Virus record (IMG/VR): IMGVR_UViG_3300031801_001562
Direction: 5' to 3' (one strand)
Origin: a virus
Taxonomy: Duplodnaviria; Caudoviricetes
Length of the DNA stretch: 64,000 nt
A program made the translations under genes and the position numbers. The first letter of the stretch is position 1, and the number at the start of each line of letters is the position of its first letter. The notes beneath the pieces are model-generated. The model was not told where the DNA came from, ran no database searches, and was given only the letters and a program-made list of their open reading frames with translations. Below are positions 3,616 through 20,408 of the stretch, piece by piece.

Positions 3616-4611
3616 TCATAAATTTTTATTACCGAGCGCTTGTATATCTAAACTTGGAGCGCGCGTATCTAATCCCGTGGCGGGATCAAATTCTATTCCT
3701 TCTGCAAAAAAGTCTCTTGTTTCTGTTATATCATATCCACCTTCAGATGGGTCCACATCTCCCACTGTTTGCATTATTCGAGATTTTACTAGTGCTCTGT
3801 TTCTATCTCCTCTTGTTGCTTCCGAAAGAAATTTAGTTCCATCTTCATTTATAAGATAATCTCTCTGTGCATCAAAAACATTATCAGATTCTAATACAAT
3901 ATATTCTTGTACCGCCGCCACTTCAACTGTTGTATGTGGTATTACATGAAAATTTATAATAGATGTTCGAATAAGTTTAGTTGATACACTATCACTTCCG
4001 TCACCAAATCCTTTTCCTTTAATATTTGGATACAGATATCCTTTAACAGTAAAATCTAATGTCCATATTAAAGCTCTTCGAGATAAAAAATCGCCTTCGT
4101 ATGAATCTTCAACATTAACTCCTCCTAAAACAATTGGTAAATCTATTTTTATACCCATTGTTGGAAGAGCATTAATTGTTACGGTAAAATCAGGTTGAAA
4201 AAATGGTAAAATTTGCTCTATAATTTGTGTTCCATCATCAGCATTTTTTACATAGACATTTAAAGCAAATGCGAAATCATACGGAACTGGGCTTTTAACT
4301 ACTCCAGTTTCCCCTTTATATTTCTGTGTTCTATTATGAAGAGGATGTAACATTCTCTCGGGACTATATGACATCGAAGTCAAATCGAAACCCATCCTAG
4401 GCAACTGCATCCCCACCTTTTTATCTAGCCGCTCGTCCCCGGAAATTCTTGTCAAAAATTTCTGTTTGGGGCCATAAGCTAAAGGTACTTTTATTGTCTC
4501 TGTTACATTACCGGAACTATTTCTTCTTTGAATAGAAATATCATTAAAGATTGTTCCAAACACAGCTACATATTTTCTTACTAAGCCATGATACCAATAT
4601 TGTCCTAACAT
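3616..4611 (-). CDS. gp15: Tail sheath stabiliser / tail terminator (gp15)
   Basis: YHGLVRKYVAVFGTIFNDI, KVPLAYGPKQKF, QIIEQILPFFQP, DSYEGDF motifs. Confidence 0.93.
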   Translation of the reverse strand: MLGQYWYHGLVRKYVAVFGTIFNDISIQRRNSSGNVTETIKVPLAYGPKQKFLTRISGDERLDKKVGMQLPRMGFDLTSMSYSPERMLHPLHNRTQKYKGETGVVKSPVPYDFAFALNVYVKNADDGTQIIEQILPFFQPDFTVTINALPTMGIKIDLPIVLGGVNVEDSYEGDFLSRRALIWTLDFTVKGYLYPNIKGKGFGDGSDSVSTKLIRTSIINFHVIPHTTVEVAAVQEYIVLESDNVFDAQRDYLINEDGTKFLSEATRGDRNRALVKSRIMQTVGDVDPSEGGYDITETRDFFAEGIEFDPATGLDTRAPSLDIQALGNKNL

Positions 4612-5453
4612 TAAAATGTTCCTTCACTAAATGGATTTCCTTCAGTAAAATCAATAATTCCTTCTGCAGTTGATTCAATTTCTACATTTTTAGCTTGTGG
4701 ATCCTCTGCAAATTCTTTTGTTACCGTGCTTATCTGTGCAGTTTCATTTGATGTTTGACCCATTATATTTTCGCCTGGTGTAAACGATCCTACTATATTT
4801 GTAACTCTCACAAATAGACCTAATCCAGGTACATCGCGTAATTTTAATACTTTAGCAGAAGCTCCGGACAAACCACCAATTATAGTTTCATTAGTAGAAA
4901 ATACACCTGAATTAGCAGAGTACCCGTATTCGACAGAATAAGCACTATCTGCTTCCACAGCATCTATTTTTGCTATTCCAGTATCAATATCTTCACTACT
5001 ATATTCAAAGAATTCACAAGATAAATCATAAATGGGTAATCTACCTAATTGATAAAAAATTGCTTGATGTTCAACAAACATTATTTCAAACATTTTCTGG
5101 GCCGTATCAAACCAAATTAAATCTCCTTCAAGGGGTCTTGTTGTAAGACCCAATCCTTTCCAAGTACGTTGTGACATAGAAAAGGTAACTTGTTCTCTAA
5201 TTTCTAATCCAAATCTACCAACAAAAGCACCTTCACCTTCAAAACCATCTGTGGTTTTAATATACACTTCTACTGGATAAGCTGATTCAAAAGATGATGC
5301 AGTGGCTTCTCCGAAAATATTATCTAAATTATTTTGAGTTCTTGGTAGATAAGAAACTTCATGTCCGAAGACTTGAATGGACTCTTGTACCAAATCTTCT
5401 AGAAGATTTGCTTCATTATTACTATATTTTTCGAAATAATTATTTAGTGCCAT
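4611..5453 (-). CDS. gp14: Neck protein (gp14)
   Basis: LLEDLVQESIQVFGHEVSYLPR, GFEGEG, RFGLEIRE, RPLEGDLIWF, FYQLG, C-terminal DFTEGNPF. Confidence 0.93.
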   Translation of the reverse strand: MALNNYFEKYSNNEANLLEDLVQESIQVFGHEVSYLPRTQNNLDNIFGEATASSFESAYPVEVYIKTTDGFEGEGAFVGRFGLEIREQVTFSMSQRTWKGLGLTTRPLEGDLIWFDTAQKMFEIMFVEHQAIFYQLGRLPIYDLSCEFFEYSSEDIDTGIAKIDAVEADSAYSVEYGYSANSGVFSTNETIIGGLSGASAKVLKLRDVPGLGLFVRVTNIVGSFTPGENIMGQTSNETAQISTVTKEFAEDPQAKNVEIESTAEGIIDFTEGNPFSEGTF

Positions 5454-6423: not shown

Positions 6424-6432
6424 TGTATTTAT
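6424..6432 (-). promoter_or_regulatory. T4-type late promoter (ATAAATACA) upstream of gp13
   Basis: TATAAATA-like -10 box; the same ATAAATACA occurs at 9335-9343 and 52706-52714. Confidence 0.7.
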
Positions 6433-7043
6433 CTCCATGGAGGTCCTGACACCCAGGATACTAAAGAAAGTCGAATTCCTTTAGAAATTGGAGTAATTTG
6501 GTGTTGTGTGAAGCTGGGAAATACTAATATGTCTCCAAAGTCTAAACACATTTCTCGTGGTTCTGTTTGATTATTTAAAACTATTTGTAAATTTCCTCCT
6601 TCATATGATCCTATATTTAATGCCACGGTTATACTTAATTTCCTTACATTTTGATGGTTTTTATGTGTTGCATTAAAATCATCATCAGTATGCCACGTAT
6701 AAAAATCTCCTTTTTGATATTTTGTATATTGGACATTAATAGATGAATAATCTAAATCAAATTTATATTTTTTATTTTCTTCTATAAAAATTTCTTTTAA
6801 TTTATAAATTATTACTTTTTGTAAATCTATTAAATCTAGTTTCCAAATATCCCATAAAAATACTTCAGATTTTCTAGCATTCGGATTATTATTTACTGTC
6901 GTACCAGGAATTGTTTTTTTATCTAGCTTATTAATAATATCATCAGCATTTTCTTTAAACCATCTTGATGATATTCTAACATAAGCCGGCGCACGAACAA
7001 TTGGGGAATTAGTGGGGTTTAAATGCTTTGACACCAGGGCCAC
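6429..7043 (-). CDS. 2OG-Fe(II) oxygenase (PKHD/prolyl-hydroxylase-like)
   Basis: YTWHTD (HxD), RKLSITVALN, YEGGNL, VFPSFTQHQITPISKGIRLSLVSW; GTG start overlaps upstream TAG. Confidence 0.92.
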   Translation of the reverse strand: MALVSKHLNPTNSPIVRAPAYVRISSRWFKENADDIINKLDKKTIPGTTVNNNPNARKSEVFLWDIWKLDLIDLQKVIIYKLKEIFIEENKKYKFDLDYSSINVQYTKYQKGDFYTWHTDDDFNATHKNHQNVRKLSITVALNIGSYEGGNLQIVLNNQTEPREMCLDFGDILVFPSFTQHQITPISKGIRLSLVSWVSGPPWR

Positions 7044-7873
7044 TACCGCCTAGCCCTCGAAAGCTGTTTCGCTAGAAACAGTCTTCCGTCAAAAGTAGGT
7101 CCTAATGCAATATTTTTTTTAATTTCTGATCTTAATTTCATTGTTGTAATTTCTTCTTCGTTTTCTTTCCACCATTCAGATTTATTTTGAGTGTCATTTT
7201 CACTTATAAAACATCCATCACTCCAAGAATGAAGATTAAAATCTTCTTCTAAGAGCATATTTGACATCTGATTACTTTGAATCACAAATGCAAGAGTTGA
7301 TCTGAGACCTTCAGTTCCTGCGGAATGCCAAGAATATCCAGTACGTTCTACTTCACCGTGTCCGAACCAATCAAATGATTTTACATTCCAACCAACTTGA
7401 TCCGGAATATCATAATTTAAAGATGTGTTTCCTGGAATATTTCTTTTGTATCTAAAAATTCCTCTGCCCGTTTTAGACCAAGTAAAAATTAAATTTCTTC
7501 CGGGAACATCAGCATTGTGATGCCATCCTATATATCCTCCAGGTGGATATATTGTACTTAAAGCTTGTTGTCGTGCTCCTATTCTTTTACCTAAATCCGC
7601 ACATAATTTAACAACTTTCATATGTCTATTTCTTGTTCTTAAATCTAATAATAAATCATGCATGCCTTGATGCCAAGGTGGTCCTGGTCTAACCAACTTT
7701 TTATATTCCATTAAATATTCATCACAAACGGCTTCTTTCCAAGTGATTATTCTTCTGCTTTCCATTCTTATTTTATCTTCATCTAAATCATAAAGATATT
7801 CCCCCAACTTTTGAAGAATATCTAATACTTCATTATCATTACAATATTTTGAAATATGTTCTGTATGATTCAT
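7043..7873 (-). CDS. Cupin/double-stranded beta-helix dioxygenase-like protein
   Basis: YPPGGYIGWHHNAD (HxN/D) and distal WHSAG; start moved to ATG 7873 (ATGA overlap). Confidence 0.6.
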   Translation of the reverse strand: MNHTEHISKYCNDNEVLDILQKLGEYLYDLDEDKIRMESRRIITWKEAVCDEYLMEYKKLVRPGPPWHQGMHDLLLDLRTRNRHMKVVKLCADLGKRIGARQQALSTIYPPGGYIGWHHNADVPGRNLIFTWSKTGRGIFRYKRNIPGNTSLNYDIPDQVGWNVKSFDWFGHGEVERTGYSWHSAGTEGLRSTLAFVIQSNQMSNMLLEEDFNLHSWSDGCFISENDTQNKSEWWKENEEEITTMKLRSEIKKNIALGPTFDGRLFLAKQLSRARR

Positions 7874-8667
7874 ATTCTTCCGTTTTGATATTGTTGTTTG
7901 AATAATAAGCAAGAATAATCATGAAATACTATTTCATCTCTATCTACACCTTCTCTTTCTGGGTCATATCCGATTATCCAATTCCATTTTGCATCTTCAC
8001 TGGCATTCCAATCATCAGTTTCCGGAGTACAAGGAGGATCTCCTCCAAATACCCAATGCCATTTAATATCTGGACGATACCATGGATCATCCTGTCTTAT
8101 AACTCCTAACATTAGGTGTAAGGGAAATTGATCCCATCCTCTAGTTTCCCAATAAGGATATTTACCGTCCCATCTTGAATCCCAGTCATGTCGTCTTTTC
8201 CATAACCAATTTTCCCACCATTGTTGCATAAAAGAAATCATTTTTTCAGATTTTCTATACAAACACATTCCACCATGAGGAACTTTTAAAATAGGTTTAT
8301 TCCACCACGTTGCGGCTGCAGCATATGTTCTGATTTTAGTCCATGCCATATCATATCCATCTTTTATTCCATTAAATATTTCCGGAGCTTTAGGATTGAT
8401 ACATACCATATCAGAATCAAGATAGCATGTAATATCAAAAGGAGAATGTTGTAAGGCTAATAATTTGGCTCTATTGGAGGGGGGCATGCCACCGTGAACT
8501 TCATCGAATATATGATTACCAGAATCAGATACCCATTTATCTTCAGTATATAAAATTACTGGATGGTCTGGAGCAAATTCTTTTAAACTATCTGCTAATT
8601 GTTGAGCGGCGGTGAGATATGGTTTAAAATTAGTAGCACATAATAAAAATCCCTGGTCAAGTCTCAT
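7870..8667 (-). CDS. Glycosyltransferase-like protein (GT-A fold)
   Basis: RAKLLALQHSPFDITCYLDSD (DxD), NGG-like HGGMCLY, WDQFPL. Confidence 0.75.
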   Translation of the reverse strand: MRLDQGFLLCATNFKPYLTAAQQLADSLKEFAPDHPVILYTEDKWVSDSGNHIFDEVHGGMPPSNRAKLLALQHSPFDITCYLDSDMVCINPKAPEIFNGIKDGYDMAWTKIRTYAAAATWWNKPILKVPHGGMCLYRKSEKMISFMQQWWENWLWKRRHDWDSRWDGKYPYWETRGWDQFPLHLMLGVIRQDDPWYRPDIKWHWVFGGDPPCTPETDDWNASEDAKWNWIIGYDPEREGVDRDEIVFHDYSCLLFKQQYQNGRI

Positions 8668-8676
8668 CTAATTTTT

Positions 8677-9306
8677 TTAATTTTCTTCATCCGGTCCTGG
8701 GCCGTGTTCTTCTGTCCTTATCCATTTTTCATCTCCGATTTCTTTATCAGCCACTGCTTCAATTGTTGATGTATTAGCTGCTGGTTCATCTGCAGATCTT
8801 TCATCCAAAAGATCTTCCGCAGATAAAGTTATTCTAATTATAGATAAAGTTATAAAAGACGCGACTAGTGCGGAAATTTCGGTTAACGATTTAGATTTTC
8901 TAATTCGGGATCTTAATTCCCTATTTTCACTATCTCTAACTTCTGGAATTTCAAAAGCTTCTAATTTAGCTCGGAATAAAGTTTCTAAATCATCTGCAGC
9001 TCTTTTTCTTTCAAATCGTTGTTTTTCATCCCTTTGTTTAATATTTGATCTAGGGCCTCTGTCTTTATTTTGAATTTCGCGTTGCTGTTTATTAGTTTCA
9101 GAAAATTCATCAATTTGTTCAGATGTAAATTTGTGAAAAAAATCTTTCCATTCTCGTGAATCTTCTAAAGCTTGGCCGGAGTATCTAGATTTGTCTTGTC
9201 TTTCATAAAGAATAGAAATTTCTTTTTTTTCATCTGTGCGCCACAGTCCTTCAATCATTGTATCATGTGTCCACTCTTCTTGTTCAGCCACTTCTTGTTC
9301 AGCCAT
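8677..9306 (-). CDS. Hypothetical protein, conserved next to fibre genes in T4-like phages
   Basis: 209 aa ORF, LFRAKLEAFEIPEVRDSENRELRSRIRK block; late promoter upstream. Confidence 0.6.
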   Translation of the reverse strand: MAEQEVAEQEEWTHDTMIEGLWRTDEKKEISILYERQDKSRYSGQALEDSREWKDFFHKFTSEQIDEFSETNKQQREIQNKDRGPRSNIKQRDEKQRFERKRAADDLETLFRAKLEAFEIPEVRDSENRELRSRIRKSKSLTEISALVASFITLSIIRITLSAEDLLDERSADEPAANTSTIEAVADKEIGDEKWIRTEEHGPGPDEEN

Positions 9307-9334: not shown

Positions 9335-9343
9335 TGTATTTAT
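9335..9343 (-). promoter_or_regulatory. T4-type late promoter (ATAAATACA)
   Basis: CATAAATACA overlapping the stop of the upstream gene, about 30 nt before the ATG at 9306. Confidence 0.65.
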
Positions 9344-11079
9344 GCTACTCTTTTCCAGAAAGAATAATCATCTTGTTCCAGGACAGTAAAAACTGTTACG
9401 CCAGTATATTGATTAGAATAAAATCCAGAATATTGACCTGAATATGATGCTGTAAAGCCAGAAGAATATATTCCTGAATATATTCCTGTAAAGCCAGAAG
9501 AATAAACTCCAGAATATGTTGGACCCTCTGAAGAAGCTTGAGGATTAGGAGATTCTCCTCCAGACCCATATGTAAAAGTATATCCACCTTGAAAACCGGA
9601 AGAATAAATTCCTTCATATGGCCCTTGAAACCCAGCAGAATAGATACCTTCATATGCTGCAGAATAGATACCTTCATATCCTTGAGAATAAATTACATCT
9701 CCAATGGTTGTTAATCTATCCGAGCATGTTCCTACGGCTTGCCATGTACCGGATCCAGGCGCGGAACCGCCGGCAACAAATGCATAAGTACCTATTGTTT
9801 TTGAAAGAACATTTCTTAATAAACGTTTATGCCAATATAAATGCATTCCTGCATCATTAGCAGTATCTGTTAAAGTTGCAGAAATACCAGCGGTATGAGG
9901 CCATGCTTTTAGATTAGGAGTATCTTGATATAAAGGTTTATAAATTACTTCATCTGTTGCAGCACGTGGATAATTTCCAGCGGCAATATAATCAGTATTA
10001 GTTCCACCAAAATAATAAACGGAATTTGCAGCTCTTGAAGTTGTATTAGCATTTGATAATAATCTAGTACCGCTCCATCCTCTTGTTATACCAGATTCTT
10101 TTCTATAGAGATTATAAGTAGTATTTGCAGCACCGGATGAAGTTATAACATTATCTTCAAAAAATGTTTCACTATGCCAAGAACTAGTATCTCCATCTCC
10201 AGGTGATGTTCCAATATGATAAGAACCTACTGTATTAGCTGCACTAATATAATATTGAACACATCTTTCGATTACAGTATCTGAACTATCTTCCATTTCT
10301 GATTCAGTCATAACTTTGACATTACTGCCGTCGACCTTAATAAATGGAGGAACACTATCTGTATCATCAACATGAGTTTCATTAAAACTGGTTCCATTAT
10401 ATGGATCGCTTCCAGAATTATATTCTAATAATACATTAGTTATAGTTACATTATTCGCAACTGGGTGATCTCCTACAACGTCCGGACTTCTATATCTTTC
10501 ACCTATATATCCAGCGCTAGTAAAGCCAGCTGTAGCACTGGTGCCAGAAATCGGTCGAACATGACCCTTCCAAAAATCATTGCCTGCCGTTCCTTTTGTA
10601 TAACTTCCCCATCTTTCAAAAATGGGAATAACACATGACTCATCGATTTGGTCTACAGTCATTTCCTGTACGCCCCAACTTTCTACTTTTTCAAAAATAA
10701 CTTCAACATCAGTTTGACCAGTATAATTTCCTCCGGACGCATTTAAATAACTATAAATGTCGGGAGCTGCACCATCTTCCAATGTTAATACTGCTGCGCC
10801 AAAAGTACCGGTAACATTTGTAACTTTAATGAACTGCCCAACGCCGAGCATTCCATATTCTTGATATCTAATTACTAAGTAGTCTCCTGCATCAATATCG
10901 TTCTTATATGTATCTTGACCACTGGCACCCTGATGCTCATTTATTCCCCATATTTTTCCAACATTCGCTGAAGCACCGGAACCCGTTTCTGTTAATTTTC
11001 CTATAAACAAATTGCCTGTTTCACTAGAGCCAAGTCCAGTGTTTGCTCCAAATGGCAATATTCGACAAGGTTTACTCAT
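9340..11079 (-). CDS. Putative virion structural protein with Tyr/Gly tetrapeptide repeats (paralog A)
   Basis: Paralogous to 11079..12482 (P..VYNSGS..Q.MT, PGTW, C-terminal FWKR); start moved to MSKP at 11079 (TAATG overlap). Confidence 0.7.
   Translation of the reverse strand: MSKPCRILPFGANTGLGSSETGNLFIGKLTETGSGASANVGKIWGINEHQGASGQDTYKNDIDAGDYLVIRYQEYGMLGVGQFIKVTNVTGTFGAAVLTLEDGAAPDIYSYLNASGGNYTGQTDVEVIFEKVESWGVQEMTVDQIDESCVIPIFERWGSYTKGTAGNDFWKGHVRPISGTSATAGFTSAGYIGERYRSPDVVGDHPVANNVTITNVLLEYNSGSDPYNGTSFNETHVDDTDSVPPFIKVDGSNVKVMTESEMEDSSDTVIERCVQYYISAANTVGSYHIGTSPGDGDTSSWHSETFFEDNVITSSGAANTTYNLYRKESGITRGWSGTRLLSNANTTSRAANSVYYFGGTNTDYIAAGNYPRAATDEVIYKPLYQDTPNLKAWPHTAGISATLTDTANDAGMHLYWHKRLLRNVLSKTIGTYAFVAGGSAPGSGTWQAVGTCSDRLTTIGDVIYSQGYEGIYSAAYEGIYSAGFQGPYEGIYSSGFQGGYTFTYGSGGESPNPQASSEGPTYSGVYSSGFTGIYSGIYSSGFTASYSGQYSGFYSNQYTGVTVFTVLEQDDYSFWKRVA
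9397..9690 (-). repeat. Aromatic tetrapeptide repeat: 11 units + 14-aa turn + 10 units
   Basis: YSQG YEGI YSAA ... YGSG / GESPNPQASSEGPT / YSGV ... YTGV, counted by hand. Confidence 0.9.
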
Positions 11080-12482
11080 TAATTTATCCTCTTCCAAAAA
11101 GTATACGGTTGGTTATCTAAAGAAGCTAACACAGTTCTCCCCGTATATTGATTACTATAAAATCCAGCATATTGTCCTGAATACATTCCTACATACATTT
11201 GAGAATAATACCCTTCAAATCCGGATGAATAAATTCCTTCGAAACCTTGTGAATATATTCCTTGAAACCCCCGTGAATAAATTCCCTCATATTGATTAGA
11301 ATAAAATCCAGCAAATTGATTAGAATATTGTCCAGAATATGTTCCTGAATAAACGCCAGAATAAACGCCAGAATATGTATGAGAATAGGAGGGCCCGGAG
11401 CTTTGTGCCTGTGGATTAGGAGCTTCGCTTCCAGACCCGTATGTTAAAGTATATGCAGTTGTATACCCTCCCTGATAAGGTCCTTGATATCCTCCTGCAT
11501 ATCCGCCGGAATATCCTTGCGAATAGAAACCTTCAAAACCGCGTGAATAAAGTCCAGTAAACTGCCCTGAATATATTCCAGTATACTGCCCCGAATATAT
11601 TCCAGTAAATTGTCCAGAATACAGTCCCAAATATTGTCCCGAATATATTCCTTCATACATTTGAGAATATATTCCTTCATATCCTTGAGAATAAATTACA
11701 TCAGCAGTATCTGTTAAATAATCTGTATATGCTCCGGTTTGAACCCATGTTCCGGGAGTCGGGGTTGAAGTGCCAACTACTAATTTATAATAACCAATAT
11801 CTTCTCCGACACTGCTATTCATCAAATAATTTCGCCACTCCGCTACTAATGATCTAATATCAGCATCAGTCATTTCCTGAACACCATCATTACCTGGCCT
11901 ATTATAAACAGGTCGATCACCAGAAGTTGTATTGGGAGCGGTTTTTCGCCATAACCTATAAACAATTTCACTATCAGGTCCAGCTTGTCTATAAGTTTCT
12001 GTTAAAGCATCACCAGCATAAATCCATGTATCTGCGTCGGGCGCAGCAGTCCCAAAATAATAACCTCCTACAGGATATAAATTAGTTCTCCAATTATTAG
12101 AAACTCTAGCTAGAATAGTAGCTGTTAAATCAGCAAAGGACATTTGCTGAAGTTTATTACCTGAAGAAATAAATTTTGTTGGATAGATTACGTTAGCTGT
12201 ACTAACAGCGTTGGATTGTTCTTGATATAAAGACCACGTGGTAGTGGTAAAATTTCCTGCGGAAATAGGATGATCACCTACATCATCGCCTCTATATCTA
12301 TTATCAAAAGAACCGATGTTACCATCATTATTAGCATATGCAGTACAATTTCCTCTTACACTATATACTTGATTAGATGCGAACTCTTGTAGAACAAGAG
12401 GTACTATCATACTGTCGATTTCTGCATCGGTCATCACTTGAACAGCCGATCCAGAATTGTAAACTTTTAATGGTGATGCCAT
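11079..12482 (-). CDS. Putative virion structural protein with Tyr/Gly tetrapeptide repeats (paralog B)
   Basis: MASPLKVYNSGSAVQVMT N-terminus, GDDVGDHP shared with paralog A (PDVVGDHP), long Y/F-x-G-x repeat. Confidence 0.72.
   Translation of the reverse strand: MASPLKVYNSGSAVQVMTDAEIDSMIVPLVLQEFASNQVYSVRGNCTAYANNDGNIGSFDNRYRGDDVGDHPISAGNFTTTTWSLYQEQSNAVSTANVIYPTKFISSGNKLQQMSFADLTATILARVSNNWRTNLYPVGGYYFGTAAPDADTWIYAGDALTETYRQAGPDSEIVYRLWRKTAPNTTSGDRPVYNRPGNDGVQEMTDADIRSLVAEWRNYLMNSSVGEDIGYYKLVVGTSTPTPGTWVQTGAYTDYLTDTADVIYSQGYEGIYSQMYEGIYSGQYLGLYSGQFTGIYSGQYTGIYSGQFTGLYSRGFEGFYSQGYSGGYAGGYQGPYQGGYTTAYTLTYGSGSEAPNPQAQSSGPSYSHTYSGVYSGVYSGTYSGQYSNQFAGFYSNQYEGIYSRGFQGIYSQGFEGIYSSGFEGYYSQMYVGMYSGQYAGFYSNQYTGRTVLASLDNQPYTFWKRIN
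11136..11693 (-). repeat. Aromatic tetrapeptide repeat: 22 units + 14-aa turn + 21 units
   Basis: YSQG YEGI YSQM ... YGSG / SEAPNPQAQSSGPS / YSHT ... YTGR, counted by hand. Confidence 0.9.
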
Positions 12483-12501: not shown

Positions 12502-14037
12502 TTAGGGTCCGAGTCTTGTACCGGAAGAGTCATAAATTCCAAATGCTACCCAAGAACTTGTTCCAGCAGCATCCGCACTTTTCAAAAAATAATTTGCTGC
12601 GGCGGTAGTACCTGCAGTAGTTTTGAATGTCCCAGCATGGGTAAAAATTCCATCATGAACAACTGCAGCATCAATATCTAAATCTCCATCAAAATCTGAT
12701 GTACCGGTTACTTGGAAAGCTCCATTGACTTTTCCACCATCTGATACTAACCATGCACCGAGAGAACTTTCATATGTAAATGAATGTTTAGTTGTAGCAG
12801 GTATAACTAGACCTCCGCCGCTAGCTTGTGCATCTGTATGACATTTAGCCCAATCAAACGTTCCGGTGCCAGAATAACCTGTTAATGTAAATGTTGTAAC
12901 TGTTGGTACTGTTGCAACTATATAAATTCCTTCATCAGTTAAACCAGAAGTACCGGCAACCACAATAAAAACTTTATCTGAAACTGATAATCCGTGATTT
13001 TCAGTAGCATTATTTCTTTGCGAAGTAATAGTACCAGAAGAGGCATCACTATCACTATAAACGTTTCCAGCTAAACCAATTACAAAAGTTTTATCTTCAG
13101 TAACTGTAACTGCTGTATCATTATAAGTTCTAGTACCTTGAACAACTAAATTACCAGTAATAATAACGTTTTCGGAATCGATGGTAGTATCTGGAGAGTG
13201 TATATGAAACCAAGCAGAAGGTGCAACATTACACCACTCGGCTGAATCATAAAGATAAGTATTTCCTCTTAAATTAACCCTATTTCCAAAATTCGTAGTT
13301 CCACCAACGTTTACAGTGCCGCTAACTTTAAGTTGTGCATCGCCAGTTGTAGATCCCATACCGATAGCGAGGTTACCTGACGTCCCCAGATTCATTCGTT
13401 CGGTTGATTCTGTTATAGAGTTACCAGTAAAAAATCTAATTATATCTTCATCACTGCCATTATCTGTGGTAATTTTTGTATCCGCATCTTGATCTTCTGG
13501 TTGAGCTAAAGGATAAAAAGAACTACCAGTATTTCCTTCAAATCTAGTTAATGTTGTATTCCATCTAATCGAACCAGTTCCTCCGGCTCTTTCTGCACTA
13601 GATCCCTTTGGTATATGTAATGAAGCGGAAGAATTTGATCCTGCAATACCTCCTACATGAACTGTTCCCCATCTCCAAGTACTATTACCAAAATTTCTAG
13701 CCTCATCGGTATATGGAATTACATCGGCATCTATTCTCGCACTAATTGTTAATGTATCAGCAGAAGTATCACCGATATCAGTATTTCCTGTTATTACTAC
13801 ATCTTTATCTACAGTTAAATTTGTGTTTATGGTAACACTACCGCCAACAACAGCCGATTCCAAAATTCCAATACCACCGTTTGAAGTTATCGCACCCGTC
13901 GTAGTTGATGTTGCATTAGTAGTATTAGAAACATGTACTACATCTTTTCCACCCTGAGTTTGGGTGTACATTAATAGTTGATTAGTACGCGTTCTCCATA
14001 AGTCAAACGTATCTGATAAAGCTACGTTAGCTGCCAT
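12502..14037 (-). CDS. Tail fibre-like virion protein
   Basis: LSDTFDLWRTRTN N-terminus, IRWNTTLTRFEG and DQDADTKIT..DEDIIRFF modules typical of T4-like phage fibres; Gly/Thr-rich beta repeats. Confidence 0.7.
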   Translation of the reverse strand: MAANVALSDTFDLWRTRTNQLLMYTQTQGGKDVVHVSNTTNATSTTTGAITSNGGIGILESAVVGGSVTINTNLTVDKDVVITGNTDIGDTSADTLTISARIDADVIPYTDEARNFGNSTWRWGTVHVGGIAGSNSSASLHIPKGSSAERAGGTGSIRWNTTLTRFEGNTGSSFYPLAQPEDQDADTKITTDNGSDEDIIRFFTGNSITESTERMNLGTSGNLAIGMGSTTGDAQLKVSGTVNVGGTTNFGNRVNLRGNTYLYDSAEWCNVAPSAWFHIHSPDTTIDSENVIITGNLVVQGTRTYNDTAVTVTEDKTFVIGLAGNVYSDSDASSGTITSQRNNATENHGLSVSDKVFIVVAGTSGLTDEGIYIVATVPTVTTFTLTGYSGTGTFDWAKCHTDAQASGGGLVIPATTKHSFTYESSLGAWLVSDGGKVNGAFQVTGTSDFDGDLDIDAAVVHDGIFTHAGTFKTTAGTTAAANYFLKSADAAGTSSWVAFGIYDSSGTRLGP

Positions 14038-14284
14038 TGTTATCCTTTTCTAAAACTTTATATATTAATTTTTCAATTTTATCCACAGTAGATTTTAATT
14101 GTTGGAGTTGTTCGTGATGATCAGCCATCTGTTCTCGACTTTCATCGTGAGCTTTTTGTTTTTTAGCTGCCGCCATACGTTCCAATCTATGTCTATTTAG
14201 AGCATCTTTATCTGTATTTAATAAAGCTTTAGAATGTACGTCTCTAACAAATCTTGGATCTTCTGTTTGGATATTTTTATTCAT
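14027..14284 (-). CDS. Small coiled-coil protein conserved downstream of VrlC in T4-like phages
   Basis: FVRDVHSKALLNTD motif plus C-terminal coiled coil. Confidence 0.65.
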   Translation of the reverse strand: MNKNIQTEDPRFVRDVHSKALLNTDKDALNRHRLERMAAAKKQKAHDESREQMADHHEQLQQLKSTVDKIEKLIYKVLEKDNNGS

Positions 14285-17200
14285 CTAATGCTATAGCTCT
14301 TAAATCTTTCACCCTTGGTACATCTAATGTATTAGTTGAAAGCAAACATAATTTAATTGCGAAGGTTTTAAACTTCTTATAATTCGTTCCATTATCATCT
14401 GTATAATCAATTGAATCGCCGGCTGACCTATATAAAAATTCTTTAAAATCATCTTCATTTAATGAATTAACAGAATTTGCAGTTTCTTGTTCTAATTGAA
14501 TATATCCTCTGTCATCAAATGATTCTGTGTCATCCGGACTCAATACTTTTGCATATACATGTATTTTTGCAGATTCTGGTTTATAGGCATTAACTATAAC
14601 TTTTAAATCTTCCGCTTCAAAACCATCTTCAAGATTAACTTTTCTTGTTATATATTTAGTATTGATCGGTCCGCCTTGACTATCTAATTCACTACTTATA
14701 ACTATATTACAAAGGTTGTCTCCCGTATGTCCAGGATCTGCTACAGTTACCGTTGGTGACCCTGTATAATTAGAGCCTCCGGCCAATACAGTTGCTGCTG
14801 TAATCTCACCTGATGTAATTGTTAAGTCTATCGTCGCGCCCGTTCCATTTCCTCCGTCTACTGTTGCAACTGCTGAAGATGTATAATTAGATCCTGCGTT
14901 AATTATGTATACTTGAGAATCTGCAATTGCTGCATTATCTATATCATTTTCAAGAGCTATTAAACTAAATCTTGAAATATCAATAATAGGGGAAACATAT
15001 TTTGATGTTGATCTAATTCCAACATGACAGCTAAATGAATTAGCCGTATTAGCTTGCATCATCATACGTTCTGTGGGATAAACATTTTTATCTCTTTCGC
15101 CTTGAACATAATCAGTTGAGGTGTAACTGCCGGCTGTATTCGAAGTTTTATAAGAAAAACTAAGTGTTGAACTATCAAATTGCATTATTGATGTATTAAG
15201 TTTATATACATCAGCAAATACATTAGATGTGGCGGCGGACTGACTTGAAGAATTGGACATCAAAATTATATTGCCTTGATTTATTGTTGTAAAATGACAT
15301 CTCTTGATTCTCATCATTAAAGCTTCGCCTGGAGATTTATTTACAACGCCTGCATTAGTAGGCAAATATAAATCTTCTACGTTCGGTTGTTTCGGTATTC
15401 TAAAATTGGGACTAATAGCTGCCGTACTTAAAGGATTTAGACCCTGTATTCCTGTCCATAATTGATATTCACTACTATTAGAAATGATTACTAATGCATA
15501 TTCATCACCGGTTAAATAAACAGGTGCAGGAAATACAAATGTAGTAACATGAGATGTATTTGCAGCTTCCGGTGCCGCAGTAGTAACTTGAATTGATTCT
15601 GGCTTTAAAGATGCTTCAGCAAATGGTAGAATTGTTCCGCAACTTGGTAACCCATTAATTAGAGGTCTAATTTGAACAGTAACGGGTAATTGAGGTGTAG
15701 AGCTATTAGCGGTTGCTTTTTGTCTAAAAAATAAATCAACCTCTTTAACAAATACACCTTCTACATAATTACTCTTATTAACAATAAATGTTTGAGTCAG
15801 TGGATCCATCCAACCTTGAGATCCTTCAACTCTACTAGTAGCACTTGTTATAACATTTTCATTAGTAACATCTTCTCTTCGTGAAATAGATGGTCTTGTT
15901 GAAATTGAAGTTGCTTCCCTGCCATCCAATAAACCTCTTACATAAAAAGTACATTCTGCAGCCATGGTAGAATTTGCAACATTATCATTTGCTTCATCGG
16001 TAACTCTTAATAATCTTTCACCGGCTTTATGTGCTGTGCTAGGTAAACTAAGAACTCCAGCAAAAGCTCCAGCTAAATTAGTAGCCATATAAGCGGCTTG
16101 TCCTTTTGTGGGAACAGTTCTATTAGAAACTACGCCTGAAATTCCACTATTGGAAGATAAAATAGTTGTTGTACTTGGACTAAATGATTGATCTATATCA
16201 GCATTATCGCCATTTTGATCATGAGCTTTAATTACTTTAATATAACCAGTTGCTGTTCCACCCGAAGTAGTTTTTTCTGGCATAATTACTTGACAAACAT
16301 TAGCTCCTTCAGAAAGAACTTCTCCCTGAATTAAATGCTTATCAGTATCCACATTATTAAGAACAAGAAAAGGCATTGGATATACATTAGCTGTAACATT
16401 CGTACCGTCAAAAAATATTGCTACATTTGTTGATGGTTTCATTCCTTTAGCAACGAAATAAATTCTTTCATCATCTGGGGCAAATTGTGATTTAAGTAAA
16501 TGAGGTTTCATCCAAAAAGTCATAGAAATATCTGCGACTTTATTACCTAAACTTCTTTTAATAGAATCTGGAATATTCTTTGAAGTAATACCTCTTCTAG
16601 TTTGACCTTGAGAAATCAGGGTTGCTTTTCTTATTCCTCCGGAAGTTGCACCAGCATCTTTTATACTTATTTCTGGTTCTGGGTTAATTTGCTCACCAGT
16701 CCAAATTTTTGTCCAATCATCCCATTGAGATCCGTGTCCCCCATTTACAGCCCCGAATTGCCAATTATCATTAACTCCTTCTAAATTGACTAACACTTCT
16801 GGTCTTATAGAAGTATCATACCATACATCAGAATCCGGAAATGTTTTTATCCCTCCGGAAAATTGAGCTAAGGCATAAGGATTAATTGCTTTATAAGAAC
16901 TAGCCAATGGTTGATTAACTAAATTAGCTGTTGTAAATGGTAAAGTAGCTAACTCCGGACCTGGTAAATGATATTGAATATTATTACTAGATCCTTTTGA
17001 TAATTGAAAACCATAAGCATCTGATTTAAACGGAGGTCTTAATTCATTTTTTTCTATGTCTATGGAACATAGATAATCTGTGTTTATTACGTCACCTATA
17101 GAATGTCCTTTAAATCCATCTACAAGAATACCATTCTTAAATCTATCTCCAGCAGGATTGAAAAGAGAATCTTTTGTTGATCCACCCGATATTGATGTTG

Positions 17201-20200
17201 CAGCTGCTTCTTTTTCGAGCATTGATAATGCTGTATAATATTCAAGATTTTCAATTCTTTTTTCTAACTTACCAATATCTCTCATTGTATATCGTCTATT
17301 ATCAATATACTTGGTTTTAATATCTCCAGTATTAAAAGTATAAGGAGGAATAGTTAGAGTATATAATGTTATAGAATCATCATCGTCTGGAGGAGTAATG
17401 GGTTCCCGCGAAGGAACTCCTTTAATAACCCTAAAGACTCTATCTTTAGATAAAATCAGTTTATCTTTTCGACCCAAATAATATTGAGTATTAAATTGCA
17501 ATGCATATTCAGGATCTGGAGTACCTCCAGCAGCGCCTAATTGAGATGATGGAAAAGCAGCATTATTAGTAGTAAGATCATTTGTTGTATTAGAACCTTT
17601 ATCATTATTTGCAGAATATCGCGACGGTCTAAAATCTATACTATCTCTTAATTGAATTTCTTCACCTGTTGTAGGACTTGTAAATGATGGAATTTTTTCA
17701 AAATTAAGGCCTAATCTCTTAACTCCGTTTAAACCATAATGATAACCAGTATTAGCACCTACATCTGCATATGATTGGACCGAAAAGTATCCTGCTAGTG
17801 CATCTTGAATAGGTGGATCTAGAGCAGGATTGCTAAAATGATCAACAATTACTAACATTTGACCTTTTGGCGCCGGAGCTCCAGGTTTTAAAATAATAGA
17901 CGCATGATCATAAAAGTTATCTCTTTGACCATTATCTAATTCATAATTTGATGTAATATTTACTGCTGTTGTCGAATTTAAATCTCTAAGAGCTGCTAAA
18001 TGTGCTGCAGAAACTGCTTCGGATTTATCTCCAGAATCAATAACATATACTAAATTAAATACATCTGAAATCATTAAGTTATCTTTTTTACCGGCCTGTT
18101 TATTAGGTAATATAAAATGAACTTGTCCTTTTGATATATCAGAATTAGATGACAAGTTTGTAGTATTTCCAATTGTTAAAGTTTTTGATCTCGGAGTAGC
18201 ATTTGCTGTTCTAATAGTTGAAAGAATTTCAACTTGATACGCACCATTTTTTGAATTTAAATTTAATGTAGTTTGAGATGCACTATCAATAGTTGCTGTT
18301 CTTCCAGTTGCTGAAGAAAATTCTAATATTTGACCCGCGGTCAATTCTTCTCCTGTAACATTATCTATAGGAGGATTTGAAGGGTTATCAATTGTTTTAA
18401 TAACTACAGAATATAATTCTTTTGCTGTAGAAGATGGTAAATTTCCTGTTCCTATAAAAGATCCTGTCGCAGTTGAAACAGTTGTTGTTCCAGCAATAGG
18501 AACAGCTACAGATTGAAATGTTTTATAGGTATAAGTTATCCCATCCGGAATAGTAGCTAAAGGTGAAAATGGTAACTGAAAAATTAAATTATTTTTACTT
18601 GTACCGGCCAATAAAGCTGTGCCTTCGGGGTCGTTATTAAATCTTGATAATTTATCTATATCGGCTTGAGTTGTCTTAACTACATGTGAACTATTAGCTT
18701 CATTTAATTGATTTACAGATGCGTGCTTAACAACCAAAGATCCTAAATCCTGAAATTTAAAAGAAATTGAAAAAGTTGAATTAGATTGAACTTTTTGTGA
18801 TAATGCGGTGTTACATATTGCTTTATGTTGAGAACCAATAGCTATATATTCCGCAATAGTAACAACATCACTAGTAGAAGTTCCAGCAAATGTAGTATTA
18901 ACTGTAAGAGTTGCTCCTTTATATGCTCCGTTAGCAAAGGAAGTTCCTGCGGCCGGCATTCCAACTGTTATAAGATCATCACCTTCTCCGGAAACTTGTG
19001 TATTAATAGTTTTATTTAAACGTATATCATATATTCGAGATGAATAAACTGAATGATAATGAGTAGTATTAGCTGTGGATAGATCCGCTTGTTCCCAATC
19101 AAACGATCTTATTCTTGCCGTACCCATTTTTGTTTGATTGTACTTTGTCAGAGCACTTGAATCGCTTGTTGCTGAGTTAACAGATGCAGCAGCACAACAA
19201 TGAAGATCCACAAGTTCATGTTTAGAAATATCAAACGTTCCTAAAACTTTGTTGAGATATAAAGAATTTCCATAATCAGCTGCAACTATATAATCCGAAA
19301 TATTTGCAGTATCTCTTCCTTTTTCGACATCAATATATCGTGTAGCGATACTTTCATATTCATATCCCTTTACATATGCTTTACCAGCTTCTAATCCGGC
19401 AGAAATTAAAGAATTATTACCGGTTATATGATCTTTTAATTGAATTCCAAATGGTCGAACAGTATAACTTCCACTTTCATCGAAGGTTCTGCGCGCCATT
19501 GTCTTTTCAATTTCTGCATATAGTGGATATCTCGTTTCTGTTGTTTTAACACCTAATTCAACTCTAGTTAATTCTATAAATTTTTCACCAGCAAATTCTG
19601 AAATAGTGTCACTAGTGACAGTCGTTGTTCCATCAGCTCCGACTGTTTCTGTCACTATATCTAGAGCCGCTAATGTTAAATTTATAGCAAATCTATCTGC
19701 ACCGGGAGCGGCATAGTTGGCAGTCCCTTGAGCATTATCCAAAATAGATGGATCATCATCTGTCTGAACGATTTCTTCAGTAGCGAGTAATCCAATTCTC
19801 TTAGTAGGACTATTACTATATTTGTCTAATGAAATAGTTTGATCTTGAACAACTACAAAAAATCCACTAATATAAAAAGCGCCTTCCGAAATACTTGCAA
19901 TAGATGCAGTATTTTGAGATTCAGCTATACCGGCTACACCACTTAAACTAACCGTGTTAGCTTGCCATGGCACGCCTTCTAAAGTAGCAATTGTTTCGCC
20001 GTCTACAAAATCTCCACCACCTAATTTTGAAAAAAGTAATGTTGGTTGATCTGAAACAGTTCCGGCCTCAGCTTTAATAACTAAACCTTTAGCTCCTGAT
20101 GTTCCACCAGTGACGGTTTTCCCGGCAAAATTAGTTACAGCAATATCTGCATTATCAAATGCCGATTCTAATTTTAAAGAATTAACTTGATTATTAAGGG

Positions 20201-20408
20201 TAACATCCCCACCAAAAACTTTACTACCTTCTTTGAAGATATTATCACCAAACCTAGTTACCTGTTCTTGTAAGATTGTTTGTAATTGAGTTAACTCTCT
20301 TGCTTGAACTGCAAAACCAGGTCTGAATAAAATTCTATGAAAGTTTTTATTTTTATCATAGTCATCATAGTATGGTGCAATGTTAAAATTTGTTTTTACT
20401 CCAGACAC
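14277..20408 (-). CDS. Large virion structural protein, VrlC/DUF4815 family
   Basis: TNFNIAPYYDDYD, ILFRPGFAVQARELTQLQTILQ, ARRTFDESGSY, RYTMRDIGKLEKRIENLEYYT, RFKNGILVDGF; 2043 aa. Confidence 0.9.
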   Translation of the reverse strand: MSGVKTNFNIAPYYDDYDKNKNFHRILFRPGFAVQARELTQLQTILQEQVTRFGDNIFKEGSKVFGGDVTLNNQVNSLKLESAFDNADIAVTNFAGKTVTGGTSGAKGLVIKAEAGTVSDQPTLLFSKLGGGDFVDGETIATLEGVPWQANTVSLSGVAGIAESQNTASIASISEGAFYISGFFVVVQDQTISLDKYSNSPTKRIGLLATEEIVQTDDDPSILDNAQGTANYAAPGADRFAINLTLAALDIVTETVGADGTTTVTSDTISEFAGEKFIELTRVELGVKTTETRYPLYAEIEKTMARRTFDESGSYTVRPFGIQLKDHITGNNSLISAGLEAGKAYVKGYEYESIATRYIDVEKGRDTANISDYIVAADYGNSLYLNKVLGTFDISKHELVDLHCCAAASVNSATSDSSALTKYNQTKMGTARIRSFDWEQADLSTANTTHYHSVYSSRIYDIRLNKTINTQVSGEGDDLITVGMPAAGTSFANGAYKGATLTVNTTFAGTSTSDVVTIAEYIAIGSQHKAICNTALSQKVQSNSTFSISFKFQDLGSLVVKHASVNQLNEANSSHVVKTTQADIDKLSRFNNDPEGTALLAGTSKNNLIFQLPFSPLATIPDGITYTYKTFQSVAVPIAGTTTVSTATGSFIGTGNLPSSTAKELYSVVIKTIDNPSNPPIDNVTGEELTAGQILEFSSATGRTATIDSASQTTLNLNSKNGAYQVEILSTIRTANATPRSKTLTIGNTTNLSSNSDISKGQVHFILPNKQAGKKDNLMISDVFNLVYVIDSGDKSEAVSAAHLAALRDLNSTTAVNITSNYELDNGQRDNFYDHASIILKPGAPAPKGQMLVIVDHFSNPALDPPIQDALAGYFSVQSYADVGANTGYHYGLNGVKRLGLNFEKIPSFTSPTTGEEIQLRDSIDFRPSRYSANNDKGSNTTNDLTTNNAAFPSSQLGAAGGTPDPEYALQFNTQYYLGRKDKLILSKDRVFRVIKGVPSREPITPPDDDDSITLYTLTIPPYTFNTGDIKTKYIDNRRYTMRDIGKLEKRIENLEYYTALSMLEKEAAATSISGGSTKDSLFNPAGDRFKNGILVDGFKGHSIGDVINTDYLCSIDIEKNELRPPFKSDAYGFQLSKGSSNNIQYHLPGPELATLPFTTANLVNQPLASSYKAINPYALAQFSGGIKTFPDSDVWYDTSIRPEVLVNLEGVNDNWQFGAVNGGHGSQWDDWTKIWTGEQINPEPEISIKDAGATSGGIRKATLISQGQTRRGITSKNIPDSIKRSLGNKVADISMTFWMKPHLLKSQFAPDDERIYFVAKGMKPSTNVAIFFDGTNVTANVYPMPFLVLNNVDTDKHLIQGEVLSEGANVCQVIMPEKTTSGGTATGYIKVIKAHDQNGDNADIDQSFSPSTTTILSSNSGISGVVSNRTVPTKGQAAYMATNLAGAFAGVLSLPSTAHKAGERLLRVTDEANDNVANSTMAAECTFYVRGLLDGREATSISTRPSISRREDVTNENVITSATSRVEGSQGWMDPLTQTFIVNKSNYVEGVFVKEVDLFFRQKATANSSTPQLPVTVQIRPLINGLPSCGTILPFAEASLKPESIQVTTAAPEAANTSHVTTFVFPAPVYLTGDEYALVIISNSSEYQLWTGIQGLNPLSTAAISPNFRIPKQPNVEDLYLPTNAGVVNKSPGEALMMRIKRCHFTTINQGNIILMSNSSSQSAATSNVFADVYKLNTSIMQFDSSTLSFSYKTSNTAGSYTSTDYVQGERDKNVYPTERMMMQANTANSFSCHVGIRSTSKYVSPIIDISRFSLIALENDIDNAAIADSQVYIINAGSNYTSSAVATVDGGNGTGATIDLTITSGEITAATVLAGGSNYTGSPTVTVADPGHTGDNLCNIVISSELDSQGGPINTKYITRKVNLEDGFEAEDLKVIVNAYKPESAKIHVYAKVLSPDDTESFDDRGYIQLEQETANSVNSLNEDDFKEFLYRSAGDSIDYTDDNGTNYKKFKTFAIKLCLLSTNTLDVPRVKDLRAIALDE

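What the first reader, a model, noticed from the sequence alone, without database searches (positions are those of the whole stretch)
9397..11693. Two paralogous virion proteins with symmetric Tyr-tetrapeptide arms (11/10 and 22/21) around the same turn
Seen: in both proteins an aromatic residue occurs every 4th position with no register break on either side of a homologous 14-aa turn (GESPNPQASSEGPT / SEAPNPQAQSSGPS). Arm lengths are n+1/n in both, and the first arm of paralog B is exactly twice that of paralog A. Inference: both arms changed length together, which suggests an out-and-back antiparallel hairpin or needle of tunable length with tyrosine ladders, presented in short and long forms. 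I do not recognise this as a named fold.
Basis: partly seen in the sequence, partly recalled or inferred. Interest (0 to 1): 0.75.

Follow-up and report, generated by a model that had tools for sequence, protein, structure and literature searches.

The report
Length-tunable tyrosine-ladder hairpin stalk in phage fibres
Two neighbouring tail-region proteins of an uncultured marine T4-like phage end in a thin stalk made of two matched runs of a four-residue tyrosine/glycine repeat that run out to a tip and back, an undescribed fibre design whose length changes only when both runs change together.

Summary
Protein A (window 9340-11097, minus strand) has 11 and 10 aromatic residues at exact 4-residue spacing on either side of a conserved tip loop. 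Protein B (11079-12482, minus strand) has 22 and 21.

- In the simple two-run homologues the repeat counts of the two arms correlate at r = 0.95.
- Thirteen different n+1/n states occur, from 5/4 to 25/24.
- Arms of 13 to 208 residues stay matched around tips of 4 to 637 residues.
- On a tree built from the N-terminal domain alone, 49 contrasts change in the same direction and 8 in the opposite direction.
- Register breaks sit at mirror-image heights, with equal sizes, in both arms.
- AlphaFold2 places B's C-terminal 20 residues back on the N-terminal domain at pLDDT of about 95.

I read this as an out-and-back stalk. "B is exactly twice A" is a coincidence, because relatives pair 22 with 9, 10 or 17.

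The genes lie between gp8/DUF4815 and the neck genes, where T4 has gp9-gp12 and wac. The family has no Pfam, PHROG, NCBIfam or PDB relative. Only one deposited phage, C48C1, carries it.

The stalk's atomic fold, its oligomeric state and its presence in virions remain inferred. The closest analogue is the T4 gp37 needle, but this is not a member of that family.

The parts
11079..12482 (-). Gene B, 467 aa: the long-stalk tyrosine-ladder fibre protein
   Evidence: ORF. Orthologues at 70-94% identity. No Pfam, PHROG or NCBIfam hit.
11694..12482 (-). B N-terminal globular domain, residues 1-263. It has two alpha/beta modules and the conserved motifs G57, H71-P72, Y141, W153 and W246.
   Evidence: AF2 pLDDT of about 90 or more. 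Conserved columns. The only fold relatives are unnamed viral or marine proteins.
11439..11693 (-). B arm 1: 22 tetrapeptide units, aromatic residues 264-348
11388..11438 (-). B tip loop, residues 349-365, with a central PNPQ
   Evidence: Nearly invariant among orthologues.
11136..11387 (-). B arm 2: 21 tetrapeptide units, residues 366-449
11082..11135 (-). B C-terminal cap, residues 450-467 (TV ... Y-x-F-W-K-R). It packs back on the N-domain.
   Evidence: AF2 pLDDT 94-95, with long strands 246-272 and 438-465. The cap motif is conserved across the family.
9340..11079 (-). Gene A, the short-stalk paralogue. It is 579 aa from the ATG at 11079; the ORF listing gave a TTG start at 11097 and 585 aa.
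9691..11079 (-). A N-terminal region: an extra domain of about 130 aa, followed by a B-like domain with an insert
   Evidence: phmmer of B residues 1-262 against the A family; alignment A1
9568..9690 (-). A arm 1: 11 units, residues 470-510
9517..9567 (-). A tip loop, residues 511-527, homologous to B's tip
9397..9516 (-). A arm 2: 10 units, residues 528-567
9343..9396 (-). A C-terminal cap, residues 568-585

Best explanation
A and B are two paralogous fibre-like structural proteins of an uncultured marine T4-like myovirus. They are encoded in the part of the baseplate operon where T4 has gp9-gp12 and wac. Each has a globular proximal N-terminal domain. From it the chain runs out as a strictly periodic (aromatic-x-Gly-x)n strand, reverses at a conserved 17-residue tip loop, and runs back antiparallel as a second strand of the same repeat. 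It ends in an 18-residue cap that docks on the N-terminal domain, so both chain ends lie at the base and the loop is the distal tip.

Stalk length is set by the number of tetrapeptide units. It can change only through matched insertions or deletions in both arms. This gives a short form (A, about 41 residues per arm) and a long form (B, about 85 residues per arm). If the strands are fully extended at about 0.33 nm per residue, these would measure roughly 14 and 28 nm.

The n+1/n rule arises because the cap's Thr-Val occupies the slot opposite the first tyrosine of arm 1.

Shown here: the periodicity, the co-variation of the arms, the mirrored register breaks, the return of the cap to the N-domain in the model, and the conserved synteny.

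Inferred: beta-strand conformation with Tyr and Gly alternating on one face, burial of that face by oligomerisation (probably a trimer, as in other phage fibres), location in the virion, and a role as a spacer, whisker or adhesin. In other family members the same stalk displays larger tip inserts.
For: - Periodicity and counts.
- Two-run homologues: repeat counts correlate at r = 0.95. There are 27 distinct (n1, n2) states, and 11 of them are n+1/n, from 5/4 to 25/24. States 17/16 and 18/17 add to these.
- All complete homologues: 83 proteins give r = 0.80-0.82. The median arm difference is 4 residues. Arms span 13-208 residues around tips of 4-637 residues, for example 207/637/208, 125/343/125, 113/98/113 and 89/478/89.
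- Phylogenetic control on an N-domain tree: 49 contrasts of the same sign against 8 opposite (p = 3e-8). The contrast correlation is 0.42, with permutation p = 0.0008.
- Register breaks are mirrored in height and in size: 20 of 53 match, against a null mean of 6.9 and a null maximum of 13. Examples are 51,73 | 51,73; 23,45,67 | 23,45,68; and a 36-residue element at height 70 in both arms.
- The n+1/n rule holds for two unrelated tip types, one of 17 residues and one of 7.
- AF2 of B with 52 sequences gives pLDDT of 90 or more for the N-domain and 94-95 for the cap, with long strands 246-272 and 438-465. ESM Atlas family models superpose over residues 1-467.
- Structural context: gp5, gp6, gp7-like, gp8, DUF4815, then B and A, then gp13/14 and gp15. 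Distant homologues sit in the same slot.
- The B-then-A tandem is conserved on 12 viral contigs, with B always the longer.
Against: - Both AF2 runs give only low confidence for the stalk itself. In B, residues 266-443 have pLDDT of about 29. The model of A was poor throughout. No model therefore shows the arms paired along their length.
- Some close orthologues break parity: 20/21, 24/21, 16/14 and 9/10. Mismatches of up to about 3 units are therefore tolerated, are transient, or are assembly errors.
- Several long homologues are outliers in the automatic arm measurement, for example 142/25 and 145/17.
- The homologues are not all independent, and the contrast correlation (0.42) is weaker than the raw one.
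- No proteomic or imaging evidence places A or B in virions.
- The tip loop is conserved rather than hypervariable, which is unusual for a receptor-binding tip.
Confidence: 0.78

Rival explanations
1. The arms do pair, but between chains rather than within one chain. Arm 1 of one subunit would zip against arm 2 of a neighbour in a domain-swapped dimer or trimer, or the six strands of a trimer would be fully interwoven as in the T4 gp37 needle. In that case 'hairpin' describes the topology but not the contacts.
For: Arm parity and mirrored breaks are equally expected under this reading. Phage fibres are usually trimers, and the gp37 needle is an intertwined trimer with seven iron sites along it (PMC6957217).
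Against: AF2 places the cap of a chain on the N-domain of the same chain in a monomer model. A monomer run cannot exclude swapping, however.
Confidence: 0.12
2. The repeats form a one-way beta-solenoid or triple beta-helix, like the 8-residue repeats of T4 gp5C. The central loop would be only an interruption, and the arms would not touch.
For: Many units fall into 8-residue super-repeats, and the DNA has periods of 24 and 48 bases. Gly-containing short repeats are typical of beta-helices.
Against: A solenoid does not require equal arm lengths, mirrored register breaks, or the return of the C-terminus to the N-domain. There is no profile match to any beta-helix family.
Confidence: 0.05
3. The Tyr/Gly/Ser-rich region is an intrinsically disordered, sticky low-complexity segment, similar to FUS-like [G/S]Y[G/S] regions or to adhesive proteins, and is not a rigid stalk.
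For: The composition fits, and the stalk has very low model confidence. A weak PDB sequence match falls on a Tyr/Gly-rich tail of an exoribonuclease.
Against: Disordered regions do not keep an exact 4-residue register over 22 units, an n+1/n rule across 13 length states, or mirrored breaks.
Confidence: 0.05

Closest known systems
Needle domain of the T4 long tail fibre tip, gp37 (PDB 2XGF; Bartual et al. 2010, cited from my own knowledge; iron sites confirmed in PMC6957217)
   Same: A thin distal part of a T4-type phage fibre in which each chain runs out to a tip and back, so the tip is formed by the middle of the sequence.
   Different: The gp37 needle is held together by His-x-His motifs that bind seven iron ions. 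Here there is one His in B's stalk and none in A's, and the repeat is aromatic-x-Gly-x with period 4. There is no sequence or profile similarity. The genes are not in the long-tail-fibre position. The N- and C-termini join in one globular base.
Tyr-Gly 'aromatic rescue' and mortise-tenon pairs in beta-sheets and outer-membrane beta-barrels (bioRxiv 10.1101/2020.10.22.346965; Merkel and Regan 1998, cited from my own knowledge)
   Same: A tyrosine packs against a glycine on a neighbouring strand and fixes the strand register. With Tyr at position i and Gly at i+2, one face of each strand here alternates Tyr and Gly.
   Different: The known cases are single motifs inside barrels. Here the motif would repeat 10-40 times as the sole building principle of a stalk. 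The Tyr-Gly contact itself is inferred and has not been observed.
T4 gp9, gp10, gp11, gp12 and wac (baseplate periphery, short tail fibres, whiskers)
   Same: The same place in the gene order, between gp8 and the neck genes gp13/14. All are elongated accessory structural proteins.
   Different: No Pfam, PHROG or NCBIfam match. The only structural hint is gp11 at Z 2.8, which is within noise.
Polyglycine-II sandwich of the phage S16 gp38 adhesin, and the snow-flea antifreeze protein (cited from my own knowledge)
   Same: Gly-rich short repeats that form antiparallel out-and-back extended strands.
   Different: Those repeats have period 3 (G-x-x), form flat bundles of many short strands, and have no aromatic ladder.
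The 3347-aa hypothetical protein of phage C48C1 (Kyanoviridae, OQ984149.1)
   Same: A true homologue: the same N-domain (43% identity to family member P0114), tyrosine ladders, and the same C-terminal cap.
   Different: It is a giant form with many ladder segments and inserted regions. It is annotated only as hypothetical.

Membership tests
T4 gp37 needle domain | The chain runs out to a distal tip and back (out-and-back topology) | tested here: met
   Indirect evidence: arm co-variation, mirrored breaks, and the cap docked on the N-domain in the AF2 model.
T4 gp37 needle domain | Repeated His-x-His motifs that coordinate iron along the needle | tested here: not met
   B's stalk contains a single His (YSHT) and A's contains none. 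The motif is described in PMC6957217.
T4 gp37 needle domain | Detectable sequence or profile similarity to gp37 | tested here: not met
   A profile of alignment A2 searched against all PDB sequences found no fibre protein at E up to 1. There is no Pfam hit.
T4 gp37 needle domain | Homotrimer | not testable with these tools
   No experimental or confident computed evidence on the oligomeric state.
T4 gp9-gp12 / wac baseplate-periphery families | Match to the curated family profiles (Pfam, PHROGs, NCBIfam) | tested here: not met
T4 gp9-gp12 / wac baseplate-periphery families | Shared fold with a solved member | tested here: inconclusive
   VIA-align gives gp11 at Z 2.8 over 45 residues, within noise. 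Foldseek against the PDB gives nothing.
T4 gp9-gp12 / wac baseplate-periphery families | Gene position between gp8 and gp13 | tested here: met
   The same position is seen in distant relatives.
Triple beta-helix / beta-solenoid fibre repeats | One-way stacking of repeats, with no requirement for two matched halves | tested here: not met
   Matched halves are under selection.
Polyglycine-II repeat proteins (S16 gp38, snow-flea antifreeze protein) | Period-3 G-x-x repeat | tested here: not met
   The period is 4 residues, and 12, 24 or 48 bases in the DNA.
FUS-like low-complexity [G/S]Y[G/S] regions | Irregular spacing of tyrosines and no fixed register | tested here: not met
   Exact spacing of 4 over 22 and 21 units.

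The most novel reading that the evidence does not exclude
The (aromatic-x-Gly-x)n hairpin is a previously undescribed fibre-building module: a tyrosine/glycine zipper needle, probably six-stranded in a trimer. Its length is set digitally by paired tetrapeptide insertions or deletions. Marine T4-like phages would use it as a portable stalk, placed C-terminally or N-terminally, either bare-tipped as in A and B or displaying tip inserts of up to about 640 residues. It may be modified after translation by the prolyl-hydroxylase-type oxygenase and the glycosyltransferase-like genes that stay linked to it.
Probability: 0.4. Interest if true: 0.8.

Novelty: new variant of a known kind. Interest (0 to 1): 0.66.

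Why it matters
Tail fibres and baseplate appendages decide how phages meet their hosts. For the abundant marine T4-like phages these parts are almost entirely unannotated.

This family has no Pfam, PHROG, NCBIfam or PDB relative, yet it occurs in seawater metagenomes from many studies and in a conserved slot of the baseplate operon. It offers a simple, testable design rule: one tetrapeptide added to each arm adds one step of length.

That rule could explain how phages tune the reach of an appendage. It could also guide the annotation of hundreds of "hypothetical" genes, and it could serve protein engineers as a rigid, length-programmable spacer.

The case also shows that co-variation of repeat numbers can reveal strand pairing where structure predictors fail.

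Tried and rejected
- AF2 of protein A with a 15-sequence alignment gave mean pLDDT 36 and was unusable.
- Complex prediction with three copies of A residues 436-585 gave no verdict: score 0.00, chain pLDDT about 28. It says nothing for or against trimerisation.
- Foldseek of the B model against the PDB and BFVD found nothing at E of 0.001 or below.
- VIA-align against PDB representatives gave a best Z of 6.5 (C-terminal beta-prism of a MACPF protein, and the MABP domain). The tool's own noise level is Z 7-8, so I did not use it.
- AFDB clusters and the ESM Atlas returned only unnamed members of the same family.
- Pfam, PHROGs and NCBIfam gave no hit for A, B or 15 long homologues.
- The centre of the tip insert of P0102 looks lectin-like (LamG-type) by eye, but no profile supports this.
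- The genome search with 'own' failed because no genome is held for this window.
- The T4 late-promoter motif TATAAATA does not occur next to A or B and is not enriched in the window.
- tblastn of the P0133 N-domain against deposited phages found no match.
- Literature searches for tetrapeptide or tyrosine-rich tail-fibre repeats and for DUF4815 found no description of this family.
- Metatranscriptome contigs from two studies cover parts of both genes. DNA carry-over cannot be excluded and contigs cannot show transcription, so I do not count this as evidence of expression.
- Charge pairing across the arms, checked by eye on B, gave no clear register signal.
Full report
**What is there**

The region holds two adjacent genes on the minus strand. 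B lies at 11079-12482 and encodes 467 aa. A lies at 9340-11097 as listed. It more likely starts at the ATG at 11079, as its orthologues do (MSKPCRILPF). That ATG overlaps B's TAA stop by one base and follows an AAGAGGA Shine-Dalgarno-like sequence.

In both proteins the C-terminal part is a strict four-residue repeat with an aromatic residue at every fourth position and a glycine two or three positions later. Typical units are YSGQ, YEGI, FTGI and YSQG.

| Protein | Arm 1 aromatics | Count | Arm 2 aromatics | Count |
|---|---|---|---|---|
| A | 470-510 | 11 | 528-564 | 10 |
| B | 264-348 | 22 | 366-446 | 21 |

There is no register break in any arm. In both proteins 17 residues with a central PNPQ separate the arms. 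No other ORF in the window has such a ladder. The DNA shows diverged tandem repeats with periods of 12, 24, 36 and 48 bases.

**Context**

All neighbouring genes are co-oriented. By profile searches they are, in order:
- a gp5-like hub/lysozyme (35151-37214);
- gp6 (28836-30722);
- a gp7-like giant (22192-28836);
- gp8 (20432-22159);
- a 2043-aa DUF4815 protein (14277-20408);
- an 85-aa virion structural protein;
- a 511-aa protein;
- B, then A;
- a 209-aa charged protein;
- a glycosyltransferase-like gene;
- two oxygenase-like genes, one of them PF13640;
- the neck protein gp13/14 (4611-5453);
- gp15 (3616-4611).

A and B therefore sit where T4 has gp9-gp12 and wac. The phage's gp6 is only 37% identical to those of OM43 phage Melnitz and pelagiphage HTVC008M. 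The stretch occurs in seawater metagenomes from many studies. This is an uncultured marine T4-like myovirus.

**The family**

Neither protein matches Pfam, PHROGs, NCBIfam or any PDB sequence. Two protein searches gave 133 relatives. All share three parts: a conserved N-terminal domain of about 260 residues, a ladder region, and an 18-residue cap of the form G-x-T-V ... Y-x-[FLW]-[WY]-x-R.

A contains the B-type domain plus an extra N-terminal domain of about 130 aa. Among 50,697 deposited phage genomes only phage C48C1 (Kyanoviridae) has a member. It is a 3347-aa "hypothetical protein" with many ladder segments and the same cap.

Distant members lie in the same genomic slot, after gp8, DUF4815, a protein of about 70-85 aa and a protein of about 160 aa. 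They are sometimes present as tandem pairs. The same charged protein, glycosyltransferase-like gene and oxygenase-like gene follow them.

The opposite is found.

- *Simple homologues.* Among proteins with exactly two ladder runs there are 27 distinct pairs of repeat counts, and these correlate at r = 0.95. Eleven of them are n+1/n, from 5/4 to 25/24. Related viral contigs add 17/16 and 18/17.
- *Independence of the tip.* The n+1/n rule holds for two unrelated tips, the 17-residue PNPQ loop and a 7-residue loop.
- *All complete homologues.* Across 83 complete proteins, arm lengths in residues correlate at r = 0.80-0.82. The median difference is 4 residues. The arms range from 13 to 208 residues and the segment between them from 4 to 637 residues. 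Examples are 207/637/208, 159/490/157, 125/343/125, 113/98/113 and 89/478/89.
- *Control for relatedness.* On a tree built only from the N-domain, 49 independent contrasts change both arms in the same direction and 8 in opposite directions (p = 3e-8). The contrast correlation is 0.42, with permutation p = 0.0008.
- *Mirrored register breaks.* Where the ladder is interrupted, the interruptions lie at the same height above the base in both arms and have the same size. Examples are 51 and 73 in both arms of P0027; 23, 45, 67 against 23, 45, 68 in P0036; 19 and 41 in both arms of P0054; a 36-residue element at height 70 in both arms of P0098; and a 17-residue element at height 44 in both arms of P0018. 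Overall 20 of 53 breaks are matched, against 6.9 expected and a maximum of 13 in 500 randomisations. A direct duplication would give repeated segment lengths, not mirrored ones.

*Exceptions.* Close B and A orthologues with 20/21, 24/21, 16/14 and 9/10 units show that small mismatches occur. Some long proteins are outliers of the automatic measurement.

**Structure prediction**

AF2 of B with a 52-sequence alignment models the N-domain (1-265) at pLDDT of about 90 or more. It models the last 20 residues or so at 94-95, with two long strands, 246-272 and 438-465. The stalk between them is at about 29.

The confident part says that the C-terminus returns to the N-terminal domain, which is what the out-and-back model requires. 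The extents of the two strands fit a pairing in which the first tyrosine of arm 1 faces the Thr-Val of the cap. That would explain the n+1/n rule. I could not inspect the coordinates, so this last point is an inference.

Three ESM Atlas clusters of unnamed viral proteins of 328-351 aa superpose on the B model; the best covers residues 1-467 (TM 0.77 normalised by the hit). No solved or named fold matches the N-domain. AF2 of A and a three-copy ESMFold2 run gave nothing usable.

**How it most likely works**

In an extended strand, residues i and i+2 face the same side. One face of each arm therefore alternates Tyr or Phe with Gly. The other face carries Ser or Thr and a variable residue.

Two antiparallel arms with the same period can keep every aromatic in a fixed relation to the other arm. 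The aromatic would lie either opposite another aromatic or over a glycine, as in the known aromatic-rescue and mortise-tenon contacts. A unit added to one arm alone would shift the base out of register. This explains why the arms change together.

The aromatic face is probably buried by oligomerisation. A trimer would give a six-stranded needle like the T4 gp37 tip, although that needle is built on iron-binding His-x-His motifs, which are absent here.

If the strands are fully extended, A would project about 14 nm and B about 28 nm.

B is always the longer of the pair in 12 related contigs, but the ratio varies. B/A first arms are 22/11, 22/10, 22/9, 22/17, 25/16, 25/18 and 21/16. The 2:1 ratio in this window is therefore accidental.

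The tip loop is nearly invariant among relatives at 70-94% identity. This argues for a structural cap or a conserved ligand rather than a fast-evolving receptor site. In other members the stalk carries long inserts at the tip. Some of these are irregular Tyr/Gly repeats and others look globular.

In P0062 and P0071 the module sits at the N-terminus of an otherwise identical fibre-like protein, with two different stalk lengths. The stalk thus behaves as a portable module.

**Verdict**

This is a new, uncharacterised family of phage fibre-like proteins. Its architecture resembles the gp37 needle in topology only.

The remaining gaps are the atomic fold, the oligomeric state, proof that the proteins are in the virion, and the function. 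I rate it a new variant of a known kind (phage fibre with an out-and-back stalk) and of good interest.

Noticed in passing
window 6429-8667: The trio of a glycosyltransferase-like gene (7870-8667), a cupin/oxygenase-like gene (7043-7912) and a PF13640 prolyl-hydroxylase-type 2OG-Fe(II) oxygenase (6429-7043) lies just downstream of A. A glycosyltransferase-like gene follows the ladder proteins in both distant loci, and in L002 a cupin-like oxygenase gene follows it as well (L002 12025-14047; L004 13845-14540). This linkage suggests modification of virion proteins. The conserved prolines of the PNPQ tip are one possible target.
   Followed up: partly
window 8677-9306: A 209-aa highly charged protein lies directly downstream of A. 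Homologues occupy the same position in L002 (11535-12053) and L004 (13400-13855), sharing a conserved motif in the C-terminal half (…AKLE-x-FEIP…). It has no family match. It is a candidate fibre assembly factor or chaperone.
   Followed up: partly
window 12502-14037: The 511-aa protein upstream of B ends in ...IYDSSGTRLGP. The 160-168-aa proteins at the same position in L002 and L004 end in the same motif. The C-terminal module is therefore conserved while the body varies greatly in length.
   Followed up: no
window 11077-11081: B's stop codon and A's probable start codon overlap (TAATG), with AAGAGGA 7-8 bases upstream. This suggests translational coupling of the long and short forms. The TTG start at 11097 listed by the ORF finder is probably wrong.
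   Followed up: yes
window 9670-9690 and 11665-11694: A and B share a 29-base identical stretch at the start of arm 1 (DVIYSQGYEG). Contigs from two runs (X12 DNA, X16 RNA library) join 11694 to 9670 across it. This may be an assembly chimera, a natural recombinant, or gene conversion between the paralogues.
   Followed up: partly
L001 11983-22026 (phage C48C1, OQ984149.1): A 3347-aa family member has at least 13 ladder segments. Its outermost runs are 8 and 9 units, and regions are inserted between the segments. It is the only member found in a named, deposited phage genome and is a good target for experiments.
   Followed up: partly
P0062 and P0071 (homologues from metagenomes): These two proteins have identical C-terminal parts of about 370 aa and an N-terminal tyrosine-ladder module of different length (runs of 13 and 16 units, against about 129 and 112 residues). 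The ladder hairpin is therefore also used at the N-terminus, without the usual N-domain and cap.
   Followed up: partly
P0102 residues about 660-860: The 637-residue tip insert of this 1335-aa homologue (arms of 207 and 208 residues) has a centre that looks like a lectin/LamG-type beta-sandwich by eye. Pfam gives no hit.
   Followed up: partly
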